Shown here one piece after another: positions 4,575 through 57,659 of a DNA stretch of 64,000 bases. The first letter of the stretch is position 1; each line of letters opens with the position of its first letter. The notes beneath the pieces were generated by a model, which searched no databases, was not told the DNA's origin, and saw only the letters and a program-made list of their open reading frames with translations. The DNA comes from the human T2T-CHM13v2.0 reference genome, Homo sapiens: the NCBI RefSeq assembly GCF_009914755.1, contig NC_060932.1. The stretch is one strand, 5' to 3'. The translations under genes and the position numbers were made by a program.

Positions 4575-6960
4575 TTTTAAGAACTTTAACTTTGACATAA
4601 TTGTAGATTCACATGCAGTTGTAAGAAATAGCACAGAACTATTTTTATATCCTTTACCCATTTTCCCCCAATGATAATTTTTTTGTATAATATAGCATAA
4701 TATCATAACCAGGAAATTGACATGATAAAATCCACTGACCTTATTCAGATTTTTCCAGGGTTGTGTGTGTGTGTGTGCGTGTTTGTGTAGTTCTTACACA
4801 ATTTTATCATAGGTGTAGATTCATCTGACCACCACCAGAACAGTTCTATTACGAGCGTCTCTTGTGCTACCTTTTTGTAGCCATGCTGTCACAGCCATCT
4901 CCCTCGTTCCATTCCTCCTGCACTCACTTATATATGGCAACCACAAATTCATTCTCTCAATAATTTTGTCGTTTCAAGAATGCTACAAAAATGGAATCAG
5001 ATGTCATATAATCACACAAATACATAGCTTTTGTATACTGGCATTTTTTTAACTCAGCATAATTCCCTTGAGATCCATTCAAATTGTGTTGATCGATTTA
5101 TTCATTTTAATTGCTGAGTATATTTACTGTTATGGATGTACCAGTTTGTTTACTCACCCGTTGAAGGACATTTGAGTTGTTTCTTGGTTTTGGCTATTAT
5201 GAATTAAACCGCTATGAACATTCATCTGTAGGCTTTTGTGAGACATAAGTTTCCATTTTTTCTCGGTTAAATTCCCAACAGTGCAATTATAGGGTTGTAT
5301 GGTAAGAACATGTATAGTTTTTAAAGAAACTACCATATTTTTTTTCTGAAGTGGTTGTACCATTTTAGATTCCCACCAGCAGTGTACGATCCAGTTTCTG
5401 CACAATCTTGCCAGTGTTTGGTGATGTCACTATTTTTAATTTTAGGCGTTCTGGTAGGGTGTGTAACGATGGTTCATTTTCATTTTAATTGATATTTCCT
5501 AATGGCTAATGATGTTGAACATCTTTTTATGAACTTATTTGCCACCTACATATCTTCTACTGTGAAATGTCTAGGTATAATTCTTTTGTCAGATATATGG
5601 TTTGCAAATATTTTCTCCCAGACTGTACCTCACCTTTTCATCTTCTTCATAAGGTCTTTGACAGAACAAAGTTTTAAAAATTTTATGAGGCCAAATTTAT
5701 CACTTTTTTTTTTCTTTTTTGAACGGTGCTTTTGGTTTCAAGTCTAAGAACTTACTTAGCTCTAGGTCCTGAGGATTTTTCTTTTTCTAAAAATCCTACA
5801 GATTTACATTTTATATTTAAGGGCATGATCCATTTTGTGTTAATTTTTACATGTAAGATGTGATTTTTCGTTGAGGTTCATTTGTTTGCCTATGCCTCCA
5901 ATTGTTTCAGCAACATTATTGAAAAGGCTATCTTTCTTCCATTTAATTACATTGGAACCTTTGTCAAAAATCATATTTGTGTGGGCATATTTCTGAGTTT
6001 TCTATTCTTTCCATTGGTCTATGTGTCAGTCCTTCCACCAATACCACACATTCTTGACTATTGTATCTGAATAGTTAGACTTAACATTGAGTAGAGTGAT
6101 TCTTCTTACTTTATTTTTCTTGTGCAAAATTGTTTTAGCTATTCTAGGTCCTGTGCCTTCCCATATAAATTTTAAAATAAGATTATTTATGTCTACAAAA
6201 AAACCTTGCTGGTATTTTGACAATAATTACATTAAATCTATAGACTGTTTTGGAGAGAATTGACACCATTGTGATATTGAGTCTTCCAATCCATGAACAC
6301 AGTATGTCTCTCCAATTATTTGTCCTCTTCGTGCTTTACCAGCATATTTAGATCTTCATTTATTACATTTATCGGCATTTTGCAATTTTCAGTTCAGGTC
6401 TAGTACATGTTTTGTGAGATTTATAAACGTGTTTCATTTTCTTCGAGCAGTTGTAAATGGTCTTGTGTTTTTAAATTCGATTTCCACATGCTCGTTATTT
6501 GTATATAGAAATGTAATTGATTTTTGTGTCTTTATCTTGTATCTTATAACCTACTGAATTCAACACATTTTTACAAAGTAGATACACTCATGTAATCACA
6601 CCCAAATGAAGATAATCATTAGCTCCCCAAGTACCTTCCTTGAACCGCTCTTCTTTCTTAAACTCACTCCTCACCCCAATAACCACTCTTTTGACATCTA
6701 CTACCCTGAATTATTTTCGATTGTTCTTAAACTTCATATCAATAAAATCATACTGTGTGTACTCCTTTGAATCTAGCTTCTTTCATTCAATTTTGTGAGA
6801 TTCACATTGCATATACTGTAGTTTCATTCTCTTTGATTGCTGTACATTTTTCCATAGTATAAATATACCATAATTTATCCATTCTATTGAACAACTTTTG
6901 CATTATTTCCAGGTTGAGGCTATTATGAATATAGCTGCTAGGAACATTCTTGCTTATGTC
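4575..6960 (-). mobile_element. Old L1M (L1MC/L1ME-like) fragments
   Basis: Antisense L1 ORF2 end and 3'UTR remnants (minus ORFs LILKFIWEGTGPRIAKTIL, CWWESKMVQPL); boundaries approximate. Confidence 0.75.
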
Positions 6961-26519: not shown

Positions 26520-27030
26520 TTAATTTTTACCAGCTTTATTGAGCTATATCACATACCATACAATTCACCCACTTAAAGTGTACAATTCATAAACTTTTAG
26601 CATAGGCCCAGAGTTGGCATTCATCACACAATCAATTTTAGAACATTTTCATTACCTCCCCCCCCCAAAAAAAACCCTAAAGCCCTTAGATATCACACCT
26701 AACCCCTCCATCGATCCCAGCCTAAGGTGGTCTCTAATCTACTTTCTGTCTATAGATTTGGCTGTTCTGGACATTTCTTGTAAATAGAATCATACAATAT
26801 GTGGTCCATTGTGACCAAGTTTATTTATTTTTCACTCAACATAATGTTTTCAAGGTTCACACAAGTTGTACCATGTATCAGTACTTCATTTCTTTTTGTG
26901 ACCTAATAATATTCTGTTGCATGTTAAGCAACCTTTTATTTATCCATTCATCAGTTGATGGACATTTGGGTTGTTTTCACCTTTTGATTATTATGAATAA
27001 TGTAGCAATGCACATTTATGTAAAAATCAT
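26520..27030 (-). mobile_element. L1MB-like 3'UTR
   Basis: CAGCTTTATTGAG...CACATACCATACAATTCACCCACTTAAAGTGTACAATTCA signature. Confidence 0.8.
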
Positions 27031-41624: not shown

Positions 41625-41840
41625 TAAAGGTTCTCAACTTGTGCATGACTGAAATTTTGGACCAGATAATCTTTGTTATGTTGGGGAAATCCTGTGTATC
41701 ATGGGATGCTTAGAAACACCCCTGGTCTCTACCTACCAGATGCCAGTAGCAGCCCCCAATTGTAACAACCAAAAGTGTCTTCAGGCATTGCTAAATGTCC
41801 CCTGGGAGGAATAAAATCATCCTCAATTGAGAACCACTGA
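41625..41840. mobile_element. MER20-like hAT MITE
   Basis: GGTTCTCAAC...TTGAGAACCACTG termini; TTTTGGACCAGATAATCTTTG and AACCAAAAGTGTCT motifs. Confidence 0.75.
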
Positions 41841-42136
41841 GTATGATCCTCCAAGTTATAAATGAATAGTTTTCCAAATACTTTTTATAAGCTAATCCAG
41901 TTCTAGGAACGAATGTAGACCTTGAAAAATATTTCATTGAATTGAATATATTTGTAAAACTTAGTTAATCAAGCAAGAATAAAATATTTTTTCTAATTTC
42001 TGTTCAGAATATTATATGACATAAGAATAGTTTCCTATTTTGCAGAGTATTTAAAATGAATAAAACAAATATACCAAAACAATATGTTATGTCAATTTAT
42101 ATTAATTTTAAAATTTTTTTGTCAAAATTTTTACAG

Positions 42137-42378
42137 ACACAGTCAAGGAGAGAATGAAAAAATGACCATTGCATCTGTGTCTGCTGATGGCATAAACATA
42201 ACACTAAGTAACCCACTAAATTACACACACTTAGGAATTACGGTCACACTCCCTGATGGAACTCTGTTTGAAGCAAGAGCAGAAGTTGGAATTCTTACAA
42301 GAAATATTTTAATAAGAGGATCTGATAATGTTGAGTGGAATAACAAAATTCCTGCATGTCCTGATGGATTTGACACAG
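42137..42378 (+). CDS. PKHD1L1: PKHD1L1 coding exon (prov. 47)
   Basis: ttacag|A CAC AGT...ACA G|gtaatt; PLNYTHLG...RAEVGILTRNILIRG; 242 nt. Confidence 0.94.
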
Positions 42379-43022
42379 GTAATTTTAGCAGCTCTCGTGG
42401 TTGGTATAATCATGCCATATAGTTTTACAATTTAATTGGTTTATATTGAAATACATTATTTCAATGTATTTCATTGTAAATATCATTAAATATAATTTAA
42501 TGATATTAATCTTATAAGATACCATTAAATATCTTATAAATATAATTAAATGTGGAAATTTGGAAATGCTGATAGTATTTGTGAGTAACATGAAGATATT
42601 TGAATATATTGAAGAAAAGTGGTTAATGCTGACACTATAATGGGAGAAATAAGTGCACTTGGATTCTGTTGATAAATTATCTTCCTATAATTATGATTCA
42701 TTATTATGTTTAGATTAGACCTTGATGATTAGTTTTAATATTGTCAGCAAGAAACTGCATTATTTATATTTACTCAGAAAATATGGCAAACTATATTTGA
42801 TAGTGATACAAAGATTCTGTTTAGCAAATCCTTGACTGTCAGAGCTTTTTTAATTTTCCAGAATTTGCAGTTTATCAGAACAGTGTGAGAGTGGGTTTAC
42901 TGTAAAAGATATTTTAATTAATTCCTAGACTGATGATGGATAGACAGACAAATGGATAGATGGAATGATGGGGGGAAAATCTATAGATATATAGATCTGA
43001 GCCAGTGGGGGTAGGCTAAGTC

Positions 43023-43236
43023 CGAGTTTTTCAAAGTCAGCTCTGTTGGTATTTTGGCCCAGATAATTCTCTGCTGTGGGGCACTGTCCTGTGCATCACA
43101 AGATGTTTGACAGCACACTTGGCATCTACCAACTAAATTCTAGTAGCCTCCTCTAACAACTGTGACAACCAAAAGTGTTTCCAGACTTTGCAGAAATGTT
43201 CCCTGGGGGCAAAATTGGCCTCAGTTAAGAAACACT
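43023..43236. mobile_element. MER20-like hAT MITE
   Basis: TTTTGGCCCAGATAATTCTCTGCTGTGGG and GTGACAACCAAAAGTGTTTCCAGAC motifs. Confidence 0.75.
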
Positions 43237-44313
43237 GGACTAGGTTATGCTCTATTTACAAACAAGCCCAAAATGTCAGTGATTTAAAATATAAAAGTCT
43301 ATTTCCCATTCATGCTACATGTGTCCCATATGGGTCAACAGGTGGGCTCTTCTCATTATAATTGCCTTGGGATCCAGGCTTATGAAGGATCTATCTCAGC
43401 ACGGGCTTCTGTGATGTCTGAGGCAGGAGATGAGATTACTGGAAAGTAAAGCACTAGCAACTCATTGCTTTGGTCTCAAAGTGACAGGTGTCTCTTATAC
43501 TCAAGGGTCATTGGTCAGAACTGATTCCATGGCTATGCCTAACTTGAAGAGAGTGAGTTAGTGCAAAACCCATATACCCAGAAATAGAAGGGAAATGGAT
43601 ATTGGTGAATTTTAGTGATGTTTATATCACAGTTCTCATATCTATAGCAGGAAGCAGAATGCATCTTACATGTCTCTTTTAAATTTTTTATGTAATCATT
43701 CATATCATTACAATACTATAAGTAGTTGAACAATAACTGATGCAGCTTAAATAATAGTCTTTTCTTCAAAAGGAAGTATAAGACAAAGCCCATGGGATTT
43801 TATGTCAAATGAGCTACGTTCTCATTCCAGTTCATCAGTTCATCTGCGTCAATTATCACAATGTACATGAAACCTAGTTTCATCCATTTAAATTAAGAAT
43901 ACTTCCTGTTCTATTTACTATGGTTGTAAAAAAGTAAGTGACATAATGCATATTCTCATGTTCTACAAATATAAAATTGCATTGATTATGTTAATCCTCA
44001 AATCTTGGGGAAGGCTTCATAAATAATAAAACTAAATCCCATTATCAATATTCCCTTGATCATTCAAATATTTGTTTAGTATCTTCTCTGAAAAATACTG
44101 TATAAGTACTTTAGGGAATACAAAGTTGAACAAGACAAGGTACTTACCTATCTTGCTATCTAAAAGAGGAAATGATGTGAATGCAAATAACTATGTTCTA
44201 GGATGAGGTTGAGATCATATGTGAATCAAATGATACACTTAGTTATGAGAAAATCTTCAATATAAGAGGATTCCGACAATTTTTTTAATGATGCTTTAAA
44301 AACTGTTTTGAAG

Positions 44314-44450
44314 GAGAATTTGCTACACAGACCTGTCTCCAAGGAAAGTTTGGAGAAGAAATAGGAAGTGACCAATTTGGAGGCTGCGTTATGTTTCATG
44401 CTCCTGTACCTGGTGCTAACATGGTAACTGGGAGAATAGAATATGTAGAG
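44314..44450 (+). CDS. PKHD1L1: PKHD1L1 coding exon (prov. 48)
   Basis: ttgaag|GA GAA TTT...GTA GAG|gtgaga; DQFGGCVMFH...GRIEYVE; 137 nt. Confidence 0.92.
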
Positions 44451-45015
44451 GTGAGAGGCATTATTACTAAATCACAGTGGTTTGCTCAAGGTTATCCATA
44501 CAAGAAATGTGTGTTGAACTCCTGCTGTTTGTCAATGCTACTTATAATCTGGTAGGGGAGACAGATACATAAGTAAACAATTTTAATACACCCATTTGAT
44601 CATGCCAAAATTTTGTTTCTCAAATTTTCTCACACCTCGAATCGAATTAATCAGCATTTCTATCTTCTCTACCCACAAAATGCTGTAACCAGAATCCAGT
44701 CTCTTTCCATACCTCCACCTGATCCTGTGCCTGAGCCACTATCTCCTCCCACCTGGACTGCTGTGATTTTCTCCTACCTGGTCTTCCTGCTCCCACGTTG
44801 CTCTAATAGAGTTTCCACACTTCAGTCAAAGTAAAATTTTAAAACCATGTATCAGATCTTGTTACACCCCTCTTCAAAATCCTTCAGTGGCTTCATGGTA
44901 TACGTAAAACAACAGGTCCAAGTCCATCCCATAGGAATCATGTGATCTGACCCAGAGATACCGTCTGATTTATCTCCTACGACCCTATGCCTTGCTCGTG
45001 CCATGCTAGTCATAG

Positions 45016-45435
<420 letters not shown>

Positions 45436-46757
45436 TGACACCCTAATTTCAGTCAGATCTTTTGACAAGGGTTATCGCTCCAGAGAGGACTTTTCTCACC
45501 ACTGTTATTTAAAATTGCCACCCAAACTCCTGTTTACTTTATTTATACATAACTCCTAATAGGATATCTGTTTTTATTTATTTTCAACCTCTTCCTCTAG
45601 AACATAAGCTCTATTATTTTACAGATGTTGTCTTTATGGTTCTCTGCTGATTCCCTGGAACAATGCATGGCATATAGTAGATTCTCAGTTGATTATAAAT
45701 TAAACAAATACATAAATATGCATGTTATCCCTATGACACTAGAAACTCCTGTGTATCTTATTTATATTCAGGCTGTATAATCACGGTTTGGCATAGTTCT
45801 TATCATGTATTCAGCAGAAGGAAGGAAGGGAGGGAGGAAGGGATAATAAAATCCATAAATCCATTAAACCAGGCACACCTCGACTGCATTGATGGTGACA
45901 CAGTCAGCACCTCCATTTTGTAAACTTCCCTCCTCCTGAGATATGTTACATGTGACATCTCAAATATGGACTGAGATTGCTAGGTTGATCTGGATATTGA
46001 ATATTAATAATGGTTAATTTTTAGCTTTAGATGGACAACAAAAATAGAGGAAGTAACGTTTTATTTCCTTACCCCATGAGATTATATGCTCACATGCATG
46101 CACACACGCACATACACACACACACAGACACACTGGTATCCTCTGTATTAAATTATTAAATCATAGACCATTTGAAAGAATGCACAGCAGGGTGATTAAG
46201 AGCACCAGCTCTAGAGTTAGACCAACTTGGGTTTAAATGGAACTTTGTAACCATAAACAAGATGCTCAGCCTTTCTAAACTTCCATTTATTAATCTGTAA
46301 AATAAAGTCAATGGTAAGTGCCTACTTTAGGGGATTATGGCAAAGACTAGGATCATGCATGCAAAAGAGCACAACACCTGGCACACATAAAACATTCAAG
46401 AAATGTTTCTTGTTATTACATAAGAAGCAAAGTAAAGTAAAAGAGGAAAAGAAGTCTTTCAAGATGTTTTATTTCCTAAAACACAAAAGTTTACTAATAT
46501 ACCAAGGCAAAAAGCAGAAGAGTCAAAGATGGCTTTTTACATTCTTTCATTCATTTTGTAATAAGTGTGGTCTGCTATACATTGTATAAAACATGGTGGG
46601 TTGGGGGTTCAATAACATTTTCAAATAATAAACATGAAAAATTTGGAAGAAATAAATATATTAATAATAATATAAAATTAGATATTTTTTGAAACAAGAA
46701 AATATGAGCTCAACATCTGAGCTATTACTAAATAACTGTGATTTCTGGGCTTAACAG

Positions 46758-47787
46758 GTATTCCATGCTGGCCAGGCTTTCCGGTTGGGGCGATATCCAA
46801 TACATTGGCACCTGCTTGGAGACTTACAGTTTAAATCTTATGTAAGAGGCTGTGCAATTCACCAGGCCTATAACAGAGCTGTTACTATTCATAACACACA
46901 CCATCTTCTGGTTGAGAGGAATATTATATATGATATTAAGGGAGGAGCATTTTTTATAGAAGATGGTATTGAACATGGCAATATCCTCCAGTATAACTTG
47001 GCAGTATTTGTACAGCAAAGTACCAGTCTTCTGAATGATGATGTGACCCCGGCTGCATTTTGGGTCACCAACCCGAACAATACCATACGACACAATGCTG
47101 TTGCTGGTGGCACTCACTTTGGCTTTTGGTACCGGATGAACAACCACCCTGATGGGCCATCCTATGACAGAAACATTTGTCAAAAAAGAGTTCCCCTTGG
47201 CGAATTTTTTAACAATACTGTCCATTCTCAAGGTTGGTTTGGAATGTGGATCTTTGAGGAATATTTCCCCATGCAAACGGGATCTTGTACATCTACAGTG
47301 CCTGCACCTGCAATATTTAACTCACTTACTACTTGGAATTGTCAAAAAGGAGCTGAATGGGTCAATGGAGGTGCCCTTCAGTTCCATAACTTTGTGATGG
47401 TGAATAACTATGAGGCTGGAATTGAGACTAAGAGGATCCTGGCTCCTTATGTTGGAGGGTGGGGTGAAACCAATGGAGCGGTGATTAAAAATGCCAAAAT
47501 AGTCGGCCATCTTGATGAACTGGGAATGGGGTCTGCATTTTGCACAGCAAAAGGCCTGGTTCTCCCATTTAGTGAAGGCTTGACTGTCTCTTCTGTGCAC
47601 TTTATGAACTTTGACCGTCCCAACTGTGTAGCTTTGGGAGTGACATCCATCTCTGGAGTTTGTAATGACAGATGTGGGGGTTGGAGTGCAAAGTTTGTTG
47701 ACGTCCAGTATTCTCACACACCGAACAAGGCTGGCTTTCGCTGGGAACATGAAATGGTAATGATTGATGTTGATGGCTCACTTACAG
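46758..47787 (+). CDS. PKHD1L1: PKHD1L1 large coding exon (prov. 49), PbH1 right-handed beta-helix
   Basis: taacag|GTA TTC...ACA G|gtaatg; 1030 nt; GQAFRLGRYPIHWH, FFIEDGIE, FWVTNPNN, DVDGSLTG motifs. Confidence 0.96.
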
Positions 47788-49119
47788 GTAATGTTATTTT
47801 TTAATTTGTGATAAAAATCCATTGGAAATATGTTTGTGTTAGCACAGAATTGAATTGTTAAAGCAGACTTAGGTGCCTTACAGATCTTACCCAATAGCAA
47901 ACTTTACTAATAATTTAAATGATAGAGGCAAGCACCAGGCACAGATGAGACATTCGTTTCTGGAAGAGCCCCAATCTGTCAGAGACAGCCTCCAAATATG
48001 TCCTTTTTCTCCTGCATTGGCACATTGATTTTAAATTAACAGAAAATTTTGGGCAATATTCATGGAAACATTGATCACAAAAGGAAACCATTTCAGTTTT
48101 AGAATGCCTCCATTTTAAACTCAGTTAATTGCACAGATAAGAAACTGCTTACATCACTACCCTAATTTTTCAGCCAGTCATGCTCCAGAAACATATAAAT
48201 TGCAGGCTTATTTACAAAAGCAATATAGACAGACTGTATCTATCCTTGCGAAAATACTTTTAAGAGAAGAAATAAGTCACAAACCAGCTGTGAACCCTTT
48301 TATTCCAATCTAAATCCTAAATTTGTAATTTATTCAAAGAATACCAAAAGAACAAAATTCCATATACATTGTAGGTTAAATTTTTTTAGCATTTCAAGTT
48401 CAGAGTATGTCACATTTTCAATATTTCATAAACATTCATGATTTCTAGAATTTAGCATCTTTACAAATTGTAAATGATAAAAAATCTGTCTAAATAAGAT
48501 AGCGAGGATATGTGCCTCATACTTTGTGAGTCAATCGACAGGTAAACCTATAGATGGTAATGATTTACTTTTGAAAGACTCTGAAGGATGAAAGAAGATT
48601 CATCTCAAAATTCAAATGCAAAAGTTGAGTTTTCAACCACAGTTGTTAACTTCTGTTTCAAGTATAATCGTAACTTTAAAGAGGGAGAATGTTTGGATGC
48701 CTTTGATATATAAAGCTTTGTGTAATGTTTATTGATTTACTTAATTCAGTTTAAGTTTTTAATGTTAATTGGTAGTCTACTAGTTTCGAGTAAAGGCTTT
48801 ATGGTCATAACACCTGGATTTAAATCCTCTGTGTCCTTGAATAGGCTACTCATCCCACTTCCCATTTCCAAGTTTGACTCTTATGGGTGCTTCAGACCCT
48901 GTGTTTCAGCTAAATCTACAATAATATTCCTGACCAAAGAGCCACTGCAAAGCTTCTGTATGAGATCCTCTTGCTCCATGCAAACAAGCAAACAAACAAA
49001 ACTACCCAGACTTTTAGACTGTATTAGTGGTACTATGGGTCACAATTCTGTATATTGTAGACCTTTTTTATGTTTCTTAATGTGAAATAAAAAACATATT
49101 TTGTTTGTTTGTTTCCCAG

Positions 49120-49311
49120 GGCACAAAGGACATACCGTCATTCCACACAGCTCATTGCTAGACCCTTCTCATTGTACTCAGGAAGCTGAGTGGAGCATTG
49201 GGTTCCCTGGATCAGTCTGTGATGCTTCAGTCAGCTTTCACCGTTTAGCGTTCAACCAGCCTTCTCCAGTATCTCTGCTTGAAAAGGATGTGGTTCTTTC
49301 AGACTCTTTTG
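49120..49311 (+). CDS. PKHD1L1: PKHD1L1 coding exon (prov. 50)
   Basis: tcccag|GG CAC AAA...TTT G|gtaagt; 192 nt; phase 1-1. Confidence 0.93.
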
Positions 49312-49539
49312 GTAAGTGGAATATATTAGTTTAAACAACTAATTTAAATATATCTTCCTAAACTTTTGTCATCATCTTCTTGCATTGTTACTTGGTTGTT
49401 CAAACATTGCAAAAAGTATAACATTTATATTAGAGTCCAAGCAGGAAACAAATAATACTCTCGAAGTAGGTGTTTGAGAAGCATTTTATAAATGCAGAGG
49501 CTAGCGAAATATTCTGCTGATCAAGAAACCTCCAGACAA

Positions 49540-50109
49540 TATTATGACAGAGAGAGGGAGCGTTGGCACAGCCCTTGGAGCAAGTAAAAATGTACCAGTG
49601 TTCCTGCCACTCAAAGCAAATGTTTTTGATTGTCCTTGCTGATTGAGATGGGATGGGGGAGCATTTACTAGGTTAATAGCTGCCTAACAGGTGCCAGGGA
49701 TTGTGGATTTACTGATTTGTTCCGGTAAAGGTACAATACCTGGAACACCAGATACGCTTGGCATCATTACCTGATTATGTTGCATTAATTTACTGTCATT
49801 GTTCATAATCCATCTGGCATTTGCACCAGCCAAACGAGCAAGCTAACTAAATGGGGATGTGGTGAAAATCCTGAATCTCACGTTTCTTAAATCTTCAATC
49901 ATGGCACTAATCTCTACATTCCGCCCCTGCCCCGCCCCCCTTCCCCCCACTGCCCCGCCCCAACTCAAGGATTTAAACTTGCTTTTATTTGATTAAGGAG
50001 GTGGCAAAATGGTTCCTAGAGTATAGAGTATCCACATAGTTCCTCCTACTATATTTGACCCTACTCCATTAGTTGGGGAACCAGTGTGGGAATTCTTCCA
50101 GTTATTAAG
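49540..50109 (-). mobile_element. Degenerate ERVL pol (RT N-terminus) remnant
   Basis: Minus-strand pieces LNNWKNSHTGS, EISAMIEDL, TTSPF, WLVQMPDG, AAINLVNA, PRAVPTL/QGCANA align by eye to ERVL LSSWQNPHIGS...EISATIKDL...AAIDLANA...PQGYINS. Confidence 0.72.
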
Positions 50110-50130
50110 TCTGCCTAGTCTCACTCTACC

Positions 50131-50835
50131 TGACCTAACCTACCCTGACTGGCTCAGATCTGTATCTCTATCTCTTTATCATTCCATCCATCATCTCTCT
50201 AGAAATTATTAGTTAAAATATCTATTTATAATGAATCCACTCTCACAAAATATACTGTTCTGAGGGACTGCAGATTCTGAAAAATGGAAAAAGCATTGAT
50301 GAATCAAAGATTTGCTAAACAAAATCTTTATATCATCATCAAATATGGTTTTTTACATTTTCTGGGTAAATCTAAATGATGCAGCTTCTTGACAGCAATA
50401 TGGAAAACTGTCATCATCAAGGTCTAAACACATAATAAGGAATCGTAAGTATAGAAAAAGAGTTTAATAACAGAATCCAAGTGCACTTATTTTTTCTCTT
50501 ATAGTGTCAATATTTACCATTTCTCATCAGTATTGCAAATACTTTCATGTTACTTTAAAATGCTATCAATATTGTTGAATTTCCCCCATTTAATGATATT
50601 TACAAAGTAGAGACTTGCCATTTAAAAATTTTAAACGATGTATCTCAATATAAACCAATTAAGATTTGAAAGTGTTTAGCATAATTATACCAGCCACATG
50701 ACAGCTGCTAAAATTACTTATGTCAAATCCATCAGGACATGCTGGAATTTTGTTATTACACTCCATGTTGTCAGCTTCTCTTATTAAGATATTTCTTAGA
50801 AGAATTTCAACTCCTGCCCTCATTTCAAATGGAGC
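50131..50835 (-). repeat. Inverted local duplicate of 42261-43022 (3' half of exon 47 plus start of intron 47)
   Basis: For example TGTCAAATCCATCAGGACATGCTGGAATTTTGTTATT at 50721 is the reverse complement of the exon 47 3' end; AACAGAATCCAAGTGCACTTATTT is the reverse complement of ~42647-42670. Confidence 0.92.
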
Positions 50836-50856
50836 CAGTCTTTTAGATTTTATATA

Positions 50857-51099
50857 TGATTCAGGAAGGCAGGTATTTCTGCATTTATGACATAATAGCT
50901 TTCTTGTTAAGTCTCTCTGTGCCCTTTAAGAATTAAGATTTTTTATTTAGTTACTAAACTGTGAATACCTAGAGGGCAATATCTACAAACTTACATTTCT
51001 GATGCCGTAAGACTCATCACAGAACATTGTAAATAGTAAGTACTCAGCAAGTGTTGAATTAAATGGAATTAGTTGCAATACTCAGACCATATTGCAAAT
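50857..51099 (+). repeat. Direct repeat copy 1 (pairs with 54961-55217)
   Basis: Shared AAGAATTAAGATTTTTTATT...TACTCAGCAAGTGTTGAATTAAATGGAATTAGTTGCAATACTCAGACCA; about 14 mismatches in the ~170-nt core by hand count. Confidence 0.93.
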
Positions 51100-51116
51100 A
51101 CTCAAACCAGATTTTA

Positions 51117-51440
51117 TATGTCTGTTTCCACTGTACATTCTGGAACTGGAGAAAGAACCATAATATGTCCCCATGACCCTACTGGTCTCACTGTGAGACT
51201 AAGTGAAGACTCATCCATCACTTGCCCTTGATAAGCCCCCATTCTGGCTGGTGGGCCATGTTAGCATGTTAGCATTGGTGACTTCGAGGATTATTAGCAT
51301 CAGTTTAGAGCCAGGATCTAATAATATGGAAGGTCTGGTTATTTTTCTTTCCTTAGTATAATCGGCCACATATCTCTTTCACTCAGTGGTGGGGCTTTTG
51401 GTCTGTGAATTGGCTTGGATCTAGAAAATAGGTAAGAAGC
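51117..51440 (-). mobile_element. Degenerate ERVL protease remnant
   Basis: Minus-strand LLDPGSKLMLI (cf. LLDTGSELTLI), HGPPARMGAYQGQVM, LTVRPVG...VLSPVPECTVETDI. Confidence 0.78.
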
Positions 51441-52680
51441 AGTGAATTTCTACCTAGGTAATTTGAGTTAGACTTCTGCCGTCTTAAGACCTCTGTTAGT
51501 TTTCTTCCTATATGCAAACCAAATATCACCTTAATATGCTACTCATCTAATCTTTGGAATCTCAAGATCAATCAATCAGCTATCACAGATTCCTGCAGTT
51601 CAGAGCACTCTGATTCCTCTGCCCAGTGACTATTGTGCTAATTAAACCTACCTTTATATCTAATGGTTAAGCACTGACTCCTGCCACTTTTAGATTCCGT
51701 TATTCTTACTGGGATCAAAAAACCCAATCCCATGGCACCATCCCCTACCAGCATTTCTGGCATTGAGAGAACAGCTACCATAGAACTCTTCAAAGAGCTA
51801 GTAAGGGGAAAATGCTATTACCATTACTGGCCCTGAAAAGATGAAGGGAAGGAACAGTTACATGGACCCAGAGACAGAGCTGTATGAAGAAGGCTGCCTG
51901 AAAGAAGCTGTGCCCCTTGGTTGAGAGATACAAGAGCCCACCAATATCCCCCTACATTCCCTAAGGGTGAGAATCAGGGCAATAAATACCTCTCTTTCAC
52001 CTTTCTCCTTCCCTCTCTTCTCTTTACTGTGTTTCTTACTGTCTAAACCCAACCAGAAGCTAGAAGGCAAAGGAGCAGGGTAGAGAAGGGTGAAAAGTGG
52101 ATCTACAGGAGAAAACCTAAGTGTGCAGTGCCACTTCCATCATTCCTTATGATGATATAAGTTATTACATTTAATTTTAAAACATTTTTTCTAGGTTTTT
52201 TTCCCCTGTGAATTAAAAGGGTCATGTACCTGCTATCTGAGTAATAGCTATACCCACTGTCACAGTGCCTTAATAATATAAACCCAGAAACCTTTGCTTT
52301 TCTTCTGATAACTAGATGTCCAGAATGGAATGATGTTACTTAAACTTTTAAAGTCTGTGGTACAATAAAATATTTTAAACAAAATATCTATGAATGTTTC
52401 TTCCAAATAAAAACTGAAACAAAAGTAACCAAAACATCAAAAGCAAATGAAATTATTTTATCTAATGAAGTGATATTTTAGTATTTCCCATTACTGTATC
52501 ATAGAATAGTTTCTTATTTAATCATCCTTTTACATACTTTATGGCATACCTGTGAGTAAACTGAACATTAGTACTTTATTAAAACATGATTTAAGATACA
52601 CTTTTTCAGAAACACAGACATGTGCAACCTTCCTAAGTAAATTATTTTAAATATACAACATAATAAAGTATATATTCCTT

Positions 52681-54801
52681 ACAAGTTGATCCCCAAAAAT
52701 ATTTGGATGAAGATTGGGAAAAGTATCTGGAGGATCCTGCTTTTGATACCAGTTACTCTACTGAGCCTTGTTGGAAATACTCAGATCATCATGAAAACAA
52801 ATACTGTGATCTGGAGTGTAGCCATACTTGTAACTGCAAAACGAGGTCATCATCATATTTAGATAACTTAGTTTGGAGAGAGAGTGAAGTTAACCATTAC
52901 TATGAACCCAAGCTTATTATAGATCTTTCCAATTGGAGAGAACAAAGCAAAGAAAAAACTGATAAGAAAGGCAAATCAAAATGTGAAAGGAATGGATTGG
53001 TTAAAGCCCAGATAGCGCTAGAGGAAGCATCACAGCAACTGGCTGGAAAAGAAAGGGAAAAGAAGCAGGGATTTGATTTTGATTCCTTTATTGCAGGAAC
53101 TATTCAGCTTAGTTCCCAGCATGAGCCTACTGATGTTGTTGATAAATTAAATGACTTGAATAGCTCAGTGTCCCAACTAGAATTGAAAAGTTTGATATCA
53201 AAGTCAGTAAGCTGAGAAAAACAGGAAAAAGGAATGGCAAATCTGGTTCAATTAGAAGCCTTGTACCAATCTTCTTGGGACAGCCAGTTTCTGAGTGGTA
53301 GGGAGGACTGTTTTTTCATAAATCAGTTTTGTGAGGTAAGGAAGGATGAACAAGTTGAAAAGGAAAACACACTAGTTACTTGGATAAGTTCTTTAGCAGG
53401 AAAGAAGATCCTGAAATGCTAGAAACTGAGCCAGTAGAGGATGGGAAGCCTGGGGAGAGAGAAATGAGGAAGGATTTCTGAACAACAGTGGGGAGTTCCT
53501 CTTTAACAAGCAGCTCGAGTCCATAGGCATCCCGCAGTTTCACAGTCCAGTTGGGTCACCACTTAAGTCAATACAGGCCACATTAACACCTTCTGCGATG
53601 AAATCTTCTCCTCAAATTCCTCATCAAACATACAGCAGCATCTGAAACATCTAAACTAAAACACTCAGCAGACATTTACCTTTGTATTCTTCATGAAATG
53701 TGTTTTGTCTTTTTTTATTACTAGTGTTTAAGTCATTTTTTACTTGAATCAGATGGTGTCATTTAGTAAGGGTTTTATGAGTTCTTCTTTTTTAAAATCC
53801 AGACTTTCTTTTTCTACATGTGAGATCGTTTTCATTTTAACTGGCATGTCATTTGCACACAAAAATAAAGACTAGAGCAAAATAATGCAACGCAGGAGGA
53901 GAAAAGAAATGCACAAAGACAAGTAAAGAACATTCTCTCATAGAACAATGATCTGTTTTACAGGAAACAGACCTTGCCTTGAAATTTACACAGTGAGACT
54001 GTACATAATTGCATGAAAGTAGCTATTTTTTTCTAAGACATTTTTCATTCATGAGTATTTCCAAGTATTTCATACTGTACACATTTCTTAAAACACATGA
54101 TACCAGCAGCAACTGAAAATGAATGCCGAATTTGGTTCACATGTGTTATCTACCTCACGGTAACAAGAGTATGTGGCAAAACATATACCGCCCATAGTGC
54201 TTCACAAAATGCGCTTCTATTTAGACAGCCTTTATTGTAGTAAACTGTTCTTAATGAAACTCATTCACTGTTTACAAATGTTCTGGTATGCATTCTTTAT
54301 AGTGAAGTGTTAATACATCACATCTTATTTATTTTAGCAAATCAGCATATCTTCTGTATTTAATTATAAAAATTAACTTAGTTTTTAAAATTTATTTGCA
54401 AATACACTTTTTCCATTTGACACTATGGTTTGTTGCCTACCTAGCTGAATCTATAATGTCAGCTTATCCTAAGGCTGTCCACATACTTAATTTACTTAAG
54501 TGTTCATTTTAAGTAACGTGCTCACTGTATATAGGAATTTGTATTTTGGAGGTGCTTGATCTACAAAGAAAAATTAATTAGGAATTACTTTATTATAAAA
54601 TGCTCCTAGAAGTCTTAATTGTGTTTATTTTTTTAAAAAAATAATGTTAGACTTGTGCGCATGGAAGTAATTAAGGTACATCATATTGTAGTTTAAAAGT
54701 TGTACATGATAAGACATTTTGTTTTTACTGTATGTTTTTACTGAATGATCTATCCCCCATCCCAAGGCAAGCATGAATAAAATTAAGTTAAACATAAAAA
54801 A
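52681..54801 (+). pseudogene. MAPK6P5: 5'-truncated processed pseudogene of MAPK6/ERK3 (C-terminal tail plus 3'UTR); probably MAPK6P5
   Basis: Encodes ERK3 tail motifs (YLEDPAFD, HYYEPKLIIDLSNW, FDFDSFIAGTIQL, LKHLN*). No kinase domain. Premature TGA at 53213 and later frameshifts. AATAAA at 54776, A-tract at 54796, TSD AATAAAGTATATATTCCTT at 52662-52680 and 54802-54820. The locus number is from memory. Confidence 0.93.
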
Positions 54802-54960
54802 AATAAAGTATATATTCCTTTAACTATTAATTTTTAAGCACTAATATTCAAACATCTAAGCTTTCAAATCTCTAAGCTTTCTTTTTGTGGTTATTTTTAG
54901 TGGTGGTGAGGATTTTAGAAAGGAGCTTTTGTTTGCTTATTTGTCTATATTCTGGTTTTT

Positions 54961-55217
54961 TGATTCAGGGAATCTGGTATTTCTGAATTTATAACATTTT
55001 AGCTTTCTTGTCACGTTTCTCTGCACCCTTTCATCTATTCCCTTCAAGAATTAAGATTTTTTATTGAGTTACTAAACTGTGAATACCTAGAGGGCCAGAT
55101 CTACAAACTTATCTTTCTGACGCCGCAAGGCTCAACGCAGGACATTGCAAATAGTAACTACTCAGCAAGTGTTGAATTAAATGGAATTAGTTGCAATACT
55201 CAGACCACATTGCAAAT
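54961..55217 (+). repeat. Direct repeat copy 2 (likely the template; includes an L2-like 3' end)
   Basis: See 50857-51099; has a ~14-nt extra segment near 55032. Confidence 0.9.
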
Positions 55218-55771
55218 TAGAGAAAACACTATGCTAGGCATTTTACTTCTGTGTGTGAAAAAAAAAAATCAACTGTATAGTAAAGTACATTTGGCTACTT
55301 TGATCTCCATTAAAGTCAAATAAAATTATTTACTTCTAAAAGTTAAAAACAGAAAAAGATAACTTGTCCTGATTGTATATGTATGCTGAGTGAAACAAAA
55401 GTTTAAAAAGTATACTAGATTAGTGGGAAGTAAGGGTTTGCTATAATTTTACACACGTCCATATATATCTTTATCAAAGCATCTCATGCATGATGGTATA
55501 TCTTTATGTAAATATATGTATAAAGTTATACCAGATGGCAAATTAATTTGAGACACTAACTCTTAATGATCCTATTTTTAGAAAATATCAACTTCAAAGA
55601 GTTTATATTTCAGTCCAAGACACTTAAAACCAACATACTTGAAATGAGTGCAGCTTAAAAAATTAGGAAAAACACAACTTAAAAAAATGGAAATTTGTTT
55701 CACTTGTGAAACTGAATTATTAAGAAATGTCAGGTTAAATGCAATCCCAAGCATCAGAAAACTTCACTGGA

Positions 55772-56096
<325 letters not shown>

Positions 56097-56189
56097 TCAA
56101 TTCAGTGGAATTCCACTTAATTGAGTTCTGCAAATCCAGGAGCAAATTCTAGAGGTTTTGGATGATTTTAATCAGCTCTTCTATGTTAA

Positions 56190-56597: not shown

Positions 56598-57659
56598 TTC
56601 TTTTCATACTTTACGGGATTTTCTGGTAGTGAAAGTTTTTGGTGTCTCTGGTCATGAATCTTTTAAAATTAATACTAACTCATAAAGCATAGAAAATCAT
56701 GAATTTTTTCTCTCATGGCTTTGGAATTTTGTTGGGCCTTATTTCAGACAGATTATTTTATAATCTTGCTTCTAGCTTCTTCCTCCTAAATTTTTAAAAT
56801 AAGAGGTTGTTACTTTAATATAAAATCCAATCTGAGATGAAAAGTAAAGGAAGGGGGAGAAAAATAGAGGCAGTTAATGAAAGACCTTTCCTTTATATTG
56901 TAAGAGAACTTTTCAAATCTTCTATTAAAGCTATCAGGCATTCTCTTGTGACCAAAGCATTACTAAATTATATAGTTTTTCCTGTAACAGGTAGTTCAGG
57001 TTCAAGGTTTGTATTCCTAAAATGTATATATCTTCATCAGTGTTAAGTTATAGGTCTAGTTGTAGCCTTGTTCTTTAATAATTCTAAATCAAAACACCAT
57101 TAAAGTCAAACAAAATTATTTACTAGTAAACATTAATATGTGTTGTACAGATTTTAATTAGCTCAACAGACATAGAAAACTCTAATAAAGAATCAGAGCT
57201 TATGTTTTTATATATTCTACATCAAGGATTCTGAATAACTAAGTTCTTAAAGAATAAAAATGAAATTATGTTTAGATCAATGACCTTTAAATAATTATAT
57301 TAATATATTTAGGCACTTTCGTTTTAGCAGTTGTAATTTCACAATGTTTCAAGTGTATCTTTCCCTAAGGAATAAAGGCTCCATCTCAATTCAAAATTCC
57401 AGGTTTGAAAGCATTTTACTTTCCAGTTAAATATAATATTAATCATTTCAGTTCTTCAGTCAAACGAAGACATTTAGAACATAAGTAATGAAATGCCATA
57501 TTAATCTTTTTAAAGACTGTCATAGACTAAACCAATATTTGCTAAACCAACATTTGCTAAACCAACCAAACTAAACTAACTTTTGCACTTGTTTACAAAA
57601 GGAGGAGTTTATTAGAGGTAGAGATTACTATTATTTTCTTGTTCTATGTTCTCCTATAG

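What the first reader, a model, noticed from the sequence alone, without database searches (positions are those of the whole stretch)
50110..51116. A ~1-kb composite, locally templated insertion splits an ERVL pro-pol frame
Seen: on the minus strand the ERVL protease ends ...PECTVETDI at 51117 and resumes LNNWKNSHTGS at 50109. From memory, ERVL reads ...PECIIGIDI-LSSWQNPHIGS contiguously. The gap is filled by an inverted copy of sequence ~7 kb upstream (50131-50835) joined to a direct copy of sequence ~4 kb downstream (50857-51099), ending in a short imperfect tandem (TTGCAATACTCAGACCA / TTGCAAATACTCAAACCA). No TSD or poly(A) is evident. A possible GGAGC microhomology lies at 50831 and 54922. 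Inference: an ancient multi-template-switch event (FoSTeS/MMBIR or Pol-theta-type templated insertion, or capture of unspliced pre-mRNA). The split ERVL marks these copies as the derived ones and dates them after ERVL integration.
Basis: partly seen in the sequence, partly recalled or inferred. Interest (0 to 1): 0.7.

Follow-up and report, generated by a model that had tools for sequence, protein, structure and literature searches.

The report
Two-donor DNA repair patch in intron
In an intron of human PKHD1L1, a dead retroviral remnant is split by 985 bases copied from two nearby stretches, likely the scar of an old double-strand-break repair; this kind of local duplication is already known, though this one is unusually large.

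Summary
The insert is 50132-51116 (985 nt). It holds an inverted copy of 42262-43022 (81.5% identical, including 117 nt of a PKHD1L1 exon), a 22-nt unassigned joint, a direct copy of 54961-55217 (89%) and a 17-nt re-copy of the second donor's end. The retroviral flanks are contiguous in 24 of 26 usable copies elsewhere in the genome. There is no poly(A) and no L1 endonuclease site. This fits the chimeric repair-mediated duplications of Pace et al. 2009, found by the same interrupted-transposon logic. The locus is not in their table; it is longer than their largest proximal case (619 bp) and one donor lies beyond 5 kb. The likely mechanism is a staggered break whose two ends each copied a nearby template. 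One thing is unexplained: the two halves differ in divergence (18.5% versus 11.1%, p=0.007), in transitions and gaps but not transversions. A pre-mRNA template is not excluded. New member of a known kind; modest interest.

The parts
42262..43022 (+). Donor A: last 117 nt of PKHD1L1 exon 42137-42378, its splice donor and 644 nt of intron
   Evidence: exon from the hub annotation, open frame
49475..50131 (-). Left piece of the decayed retroviral internal sequence (protease end into a truncated reverse transcriptase; ERVL name recalled), with stops
   Evidence: aligns to 29 genomic copies; copy L005 has RVT_1 and RNase H; the piece itself gave no Pfam or PDB match
50110..50131 (.). Left copy of the decayed target duplication (50110-50117 firm; 50118-50131 probable)
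50132..50834 (-). Inverted copy of donor A (703 nt; 127 mismatches in 685 columns, 17 gaps); exon part is antisense to the gene and carries 10 amino-acid changes in 38 codons
50835..50856 (.). Joint between the two copies, 22 nt, not assignable with confidence to either donor
50857..51099 (+). Direct copy of donor B (243 nt; 27 mismatches, 1 gap; one 49-nt perfect run)
51100..51116 (+). 17-nt filler that re-copies 55198-55214 after a 20-nt slip at AAT
51117..51138 (.). Right copy of the target duplication; the retroviral match restarts sharply at 51117
51117..51796 (-). Right piece of the decayed retroviral internal sequence (towards gag)
52660..54820 (+). MAPK6P5 processed pseudogene with its own 21-nt target duplication; far younger, so donor B lay about 1.7 kb from the break rather than 3.8 kb
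54961..55217 (+). Donor B (keeps 4 CpGs against 1 in the copy)

Best explanation
A 985-nt two-part copy of nearby DNA, flanked by a decayed 8-22-nt target duplication, splits an old retroviral remnant, and it likely arose in one germ-line repair of a staggered double-strand break. Inferred steps: the break left 3' overhangs (hence the duplication). The left end annealed to donor A 7 kb away and copied about 760 nt, giving the inverted half. The right end annealed to donor B, then about 1.7 kb away, made a 17-20-nt false start, re-annealed 20 nt along at AAT and copied about 260 nt, giving the direct half. The two new strands were then joined end to end at 50835-50856. This is two-ended synthesis-dependent strand annealing with ectopic templates, the model given for chimeric repair-mediated duplications. 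Both donors stayed in place. The event likely dates to early primate evolution, and the insert likely has no function.
For: Shown: two unique local donors; flanks contiguous in 24 of 26 usable copies; direction fixed by the split element and by donor A being an intact exon; target duplication; templated filler; no poly(A) at either end and no L1 endonuclease site at either edge. From the paper (PMC2671141): both ends may copy different templates and re-anneal; 20 chimeras seen, 5 with both donors local; 6 of 39 inspected proximal cases had a target duplication (4-21 nt) and none had poly(A). For one event: donor B's left 66 columns plus the filler diverge like A (16 of 83; split chosen after seeing the data, p=0.02 against the core), and transversions are equal in A and B (6.1% versus 5.3%, p=0.75).
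Against: A and B differ overall: 127 of 685 versus 27 of 243 mismatches (p=0.007), 17 versus 1 gaps (p=0.017), transitions 12.6% versus 5.8% (p=0.0025). One event then needs later conversion or constraint on B's core, which is untested. No microhomology is visible at the left junction and only a doubtful GAG at the middle. The two 22-mers differ at 8 sites, more than A's rate predicts (p=0.04). Donor A is outside the 5-kb proximal class and the insert exceeds its 619-bp maximum. Serial switching by one strand gives the same product.
Confidence: 0.5

Rival explanations
1. Serial template switching by one nascent strand (FoSTeS/MMBIR type): it left the target, copied donor A backwards, jumped to donor B, slipped 20 nt and re-entered 8-22 nt behind the exit point.
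For: Accounts for every part in one event, slip and small re-replication included. The sequence cannot tell it from two-ended capture.
Against: Needs three long jumps and a return within 22 nt of the exit; microhomology is seen only at the slip, not at the long jumps. A staggered break gives the duplication without the return.
Confidence: 0.2
2. Two separate events: the inverted copy came first with the target duplication, and the direct copy was added later at its right edge.
For: B is closer to its donor than A in substitutions and gaps; strict non-CpG divergence 0.069 versus 0.146.
Against: The second event would have to land at the first one's edge. Transversion rates are equal. B's mismatches are clustered (permutation p about 0.04), as conversion or a constrained core would give.
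Confidence: 0.17
3. Both broken ends were extended on the PKHD1L1 pre-mRNA itself, in cis, in a twin-priming-like reaction without poly(A).
For: Both halves are what each 3' end would make from the sense strand (inverted upstream piece left, direct downstream piece right); both donors are unspliced and in one transcript; a target duplication is present. With DNA templates this geometry arises 1 time in 4 (inference). PMC11702581 reports endonuclease-independent reverse transcription and joining of two extended ends (passages).
Against: No poly(A), no endonuclease site; inner breakpoints 11.9 kb apart against 1-10 bp in that paper; no left-junction microhomology; no A-to-G excess (15 A>G, 27 T>C). 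Local DNA capture is common and needs no RNA.
Confidence: 0.1

Closest known systems
Chimeric repair-mediated duplications (Pace, Sen, Batzer, Feschotte 2009, PMC2671141)
   Same: Unique local DNA inserted in an interrupted transposable element; two donors; filler; occasional target duplication; no poly(A); partial exon/intron capture (4 donors in their Table 2); primate-age divergence.
   Different: 985 nt against a proximal maximum of 619 bp; one donor 7.1 kb away; donors on opposite sides and 11.9 kb apart against 289-3,432 bp in their 5 local chimeras; halves unequally diverged; not in their Table S1.
L1 twin-primed 5'-inverted insertions and class 1 TSIPs (PMC11702581, PMC5110952)
   Same: Inverted upstream piece joined to a direct downstream piece, flanked by a target duplication.
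   Different: No poly(A), no endonuclease site, inner breakpoints kilobases apart, target inside the span of the template.
Class 2 templated sequence insertion polymorphisms (PMC5110952)
   Same: Break patched with templated sequence, no poly(A).
   Different: Class 2 has no target duplication and distant donors; this has a duplication and local donors, and is in the reference genome.
FoSTeS/MMBIR templated insertions (definition recalled; PMC8421209 seen as a search listing only)
   Same: Several nearby templates in mixed orientation, short slip at a junction.
   Different: Microhomology is not shown at the long jumps.

Membership tests
Repair-mediated duplication (Pace 2009) | Element split by 50 bp or more, halves within 30 bp of each other on the element | tested here: met
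   985-nt insert; halves overlap by 8-22 nt against genomic copies, not a Dfam consensus
Repair-mediated duplication (Pace 2009) | Inserted sequence has a single donor elsewhere | tested here: met
   one donor per half; search skips very common words
Repair-mediated duplication (Pace 2009) | At least one donor within 5 kb (their chimeric cases) | tested here: met
   donor B 3,844 nt away, 1,704 without MAPK6P5; donor A 7,109 nt away does not meet it
Repair-mediated duplication (Pace 2009) | No poly(A/T); filler, microhomology, deletion or target duplication at the ends | tested here: met
Repair-mediated duplication (Pace 2009) | Microhomology where the two donors join | tested here: inconclusive
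   only GAG, on a shifted diagonal; 22-nt joint unassigned
Repair-mediated duplication (Pace 2009) | Empty orthologous site in an outgroup | not testable with these tools
   no related genomes are held
L1 twin priming / class 1 TSIP | Target-site duplication | tested here: met
   8 firm, 22 probable; 12-18 bp in PMC11702581
L1 twin priming / class 1 TSIP | Inverted 5' part joined to a direct 3' part | tested here: met
L1 twin priming / class 1 TSIP | Poly(A) tail | tested here: not met
   last 30 nt 40% A and traceable to donor B; first 30 nt 23% T; an old tail could have decayed
L1 twin priming / class 1 TSIP | Endonuclease consensus at the duplication edge | tested here: not met
   neither edge fits
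L1 twin priming / class 1 TSIP | Inner breakpoints within about 10 bp on the template | tested here: not met
   43022 and 54961
Class 2 TSIP | No target duplication; distant donor | tested here: not met
FoSTeS/MMBIR | Microhomology at each template switch | tested here: inconclusive
   AAT at the slip only; junctions are old and decayed
ERVL (host element) | Multi-copy retroviral pol with reverse transcriptase and RNase H | tested here: met
   40 matches of 40 scored; L005 has RVT_1 and RNase H, L004 gave none
ERVL (host element) | Class III marks: dUTPase, MLT2-type LTR, primer-binding site, Dfam subfamily | not tested
   the name ERVL is recalled; no repeat library was available

The most novel reading that the evidence does not exclude
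Both ends of a break inside PKHD1L1 were extended on the gene's own nascent, unspliced transcript, so this is a fixed germ-line fossil of RNA-templated repair in cis; and the inverted arm it left now pairs with an exon's splice donor and brackets three exons (1,359 nt, in frame), shaping their skipping or circularisation.
Probability: 0.08. Interest if true: 0.65.

Novelty: new member of a known kind. Interest (0 to 1): 0.27.

Why it matters
As it stands it is an uncatalogued, unusually large example of a known class, and shows that two-donor patches near 1 kb, drawn from both sides of a break, reach fixation; a pipeline requiring one donor to cover 80% of the insert (PMC2671141 methods) would likely miss them. 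It suggests one cheap genome-wide test: whether such chimeras in genes favour the both-sense geometry, which would point to RNA templates. It also leaves a 700-nt, locus-specific inverted repeat in the PKHD1L1 pre-mRNA, predicted to pair, for which no effect is shown.

Tried and rejected
Independent repeat copies instead of duplication: rejected; each half matched only its local donor in the genome search and in 182 kb of pooled sequence. Unrelated or distant retroviral halves: rejected. Canonical L1 retrotransposition: rejected on poly(A), endonuclease site and breakpoint spacing. Edited RNA template: no A-to-G excess. Structured RNA in donors or insert: Rfam over 42000-56000 gave 7 matches, all in Alus and below gathering score. 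Pfam (3 proteins) and PDB (1 protein) gave nothing for the window's decayed pieces or the exon. An outgroup for telling which side of B changed: none found. Circular RNA of the bracketed exons: one search gave 12 papers, 4 were opened as passages; the only PKHD1L1 circles listed (PMC8232851) are from other exons, and its supplement could not be read, so a circle here may be listed unseen. A local base rate for such duplications was not measured. In one search, 14 of 29 copies were dropped because the left alignment stopped short or the right anchor was weak, and 1 of the 15 kept gave another offset, 3 of 29 were dropped.

Full report
What is there. Self-alignment of the window shows two non-Alu duplications that meet in the flagged stretch. 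50132-50834 is an inverted copy of 42262-43022: 558 matches, 127 mismatches, 17 gaps. 50857-51099 is a direct copy of 54961-55217: 27 mismatches in 243 columns, 1 gap. Each half found only its local donor in the whole-genome search, which skips very common words. Donor A holds the last 117 nt of PKHD1L1 exon 42137-42378 and its splice donor; the exon frame is open and the copy carries 10 amino-acid changes in 38 codons. This fixes the direction independently of the retroviral argument.

The split element. The left flank found 40 matches among 40 candidates scored; the best 29 non-self copies were used. With anchors placed away from the junction on both sides, 15 of 29 were usable and 14 of 15 put left position 50117 and right position 51124 on the same base of the copy. 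With a right anchor only, 26 of 29 were usable and 24 of 26 match the left flank 50088-50109 at 14 or more of 22 bases, against a median of 2 of 22 for insert sequence. Copy L005 reads through this place in one frame and has RVT_1 and RNase H matches; L004 gave no Pfam match. The window's own pieces are too decayed for Pfam or PDB. The name ERVL is recalled; class III marks were not tested.

The junctions. 50110-50117 matches the copies at a median 6 of 8, and the right-hand match restarts sharply at 51117. On that same diagonal 50110-50131 and 51117-51138 are identical at 14 of 22 (p=5e-4; neighbours 4 and 3 of 22), and the inverted copy starts at 50132. The extra 14 nt are less sure: 9 of 14 against the window's right copy, median 6 of 14 against other copies. 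The left junction is sharp, with no microhomology. On the right, 51100-51116 re-copies 55198-55214 at 13 of 17 after a 20-nt slip with AAT shared; five unrelated places in the window also reach 13 of 17. The middle 22 nt cannot be assigned; GGAGC is not a clean microhomology, since donor A shares only GAG and donor B needs a 13-nt shift. There is no poly(A) and no L1 endonuclease site.

Age. Strict non-CpG divergence is 0.146 for A, 0.069 for B, 0.108 (0.065-0.154) for 45 pairs among 10 Alus of the window, 0.019 for MAPK6P5 against its parent, and 0.264 for the retroviral flank against 29 copies. So the insert is younger than the element and much older than MAPK6P5, whose later arrival pushed donor B from about 1.7 to 3.8 kb away. 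At the rate quoted in PMC2671141 (2.2e-9 per year), K of 0.218 and 0.121 gives about 50 and 27 million years; this is inference, with no outgroup.

The loose end. A and B differ in divergence (p=0.007), gaps (p=0.017) and transitions (p=0.0025), but not in transversions (p=0.75). B's low value sits in a 177-nt core (15 mismatches) with a 49-nt perfect run; clustering p is about 0.04. B's left part and the filler diverge like A (16 of 83, a split chosen after seeing the data). The exon part of A (21 of 117) fits A's clock and not B's. One event followed by conversion or constraint on B's core fits; so does a later second event.

Mechanism. Shown: the anatomy above. Inferred: a staggered break with 3' overhangs, each end copying a nearby template, a false start at the right end, and end joining in the middle (0.5). 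Serial switching by one strand yields the same sequence (0.2). Two steps (0.17). Both new strands would have used the gene's sense strand as template, as a pre-mRNA would require; DNA gives that 1 time in 4, and the L1 hallmarks and any editing signature are absent, so RNA in cis gets 0.1.

What is known. Pace et al. 2009 (PMC2671141; main text parts 1-6 of 8 read; Table S1 part 1 of 15 read and the file searched) found 1,136 such insertions in interrupted transposons, 824 with a donor within 5 kb, the largest 619 bp, 20 chimeric, 5 with both donors local. Table S1 has no PKHD1L1 row and no chr8 row at 110.4-110.6 Mb, while the same search did return a chr6 row, so it works; the hg18 position is my estimate. 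PMC11702581 (passages and section 7) and PMC5110952 (passages) define twin priming and TSIP classes, whose key features fail here. One search for PKHD1L1, intron, duplication and ERVL together found 0 papers; that and the table search are the whole basis for 'not in print'.

Possible consequence. A and its copy are inverted in the pre-mRNA. The predicted duplex is -697 kcal/mol over 601 pairs, against -174 to -208 for 5 shuffles and -483 for the best of 45 Alu pairs, but it is weaker per pair than the nearby Alu pair (-1.16 versus -1.60). It would cover the donor of exon 42137-42378 and bracket exons 44314-44450, 46758-47787 and 49120-49311 (1,359 nt, a multiple of three). No transcript evidence was found: the two PKHD1L1 circles in PMC8232851 (passages) are other exons, and its supplement was unreadable. 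PMC9121769, PMC9695227 and PMC9666032 (passages) were irrelevant.

Verdict. Interest 0.27.

Noticed in passing
window 43023-43240 and 41629-41840: Donor A ends right at the edge of a short element that has a second copy 1.4 kb upstream (71% identical); it looks like a MER20-type DNA transposon (name recalled). The coincidence of edges is unexplained.
   Followed up: partly
window 55060-55185: Donor B resembles the 3' end of an L2 LINE (recalled); no relative was found in 182 kb of pooled sequence. It keeps 4 CpGs against 1 in the copy, a hint of constraint or low methylation.
   Followed up: partly
window 55307-55346 and 57097-57136: A 40-nt direct repeat at 88% identity, 1,790 nt apart; may be a second, small local duplication.
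   Followed up: no
window 52660-54820: MAPK6P5 keeps a short poly(A) and a 21-nt target duplication and is 96-97% identical to its parent; at least five other near-full-length copies at 86-92% exist in the genome.
   Followed up: partly
window 51800-52140: Multi-copy stretch next to the retroviral piece, matching L012-L014; likely an LTR, family not determined.
   Followed up: partly
window 45069-45384 and 55766-56100: An inverted Alu pair brackets exons 46758-47787 and 49120-49311 and the insert; predicted duplex -430 kcal/mol. It would compete with the duplicated arm.
   Followed up: partly
window 5154-5225, 6887-6949, 26948-27019: Three short similar stretches at 74-76% identity outside the masked repeats; probably an old unmasked repeat.
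   Followed up: no
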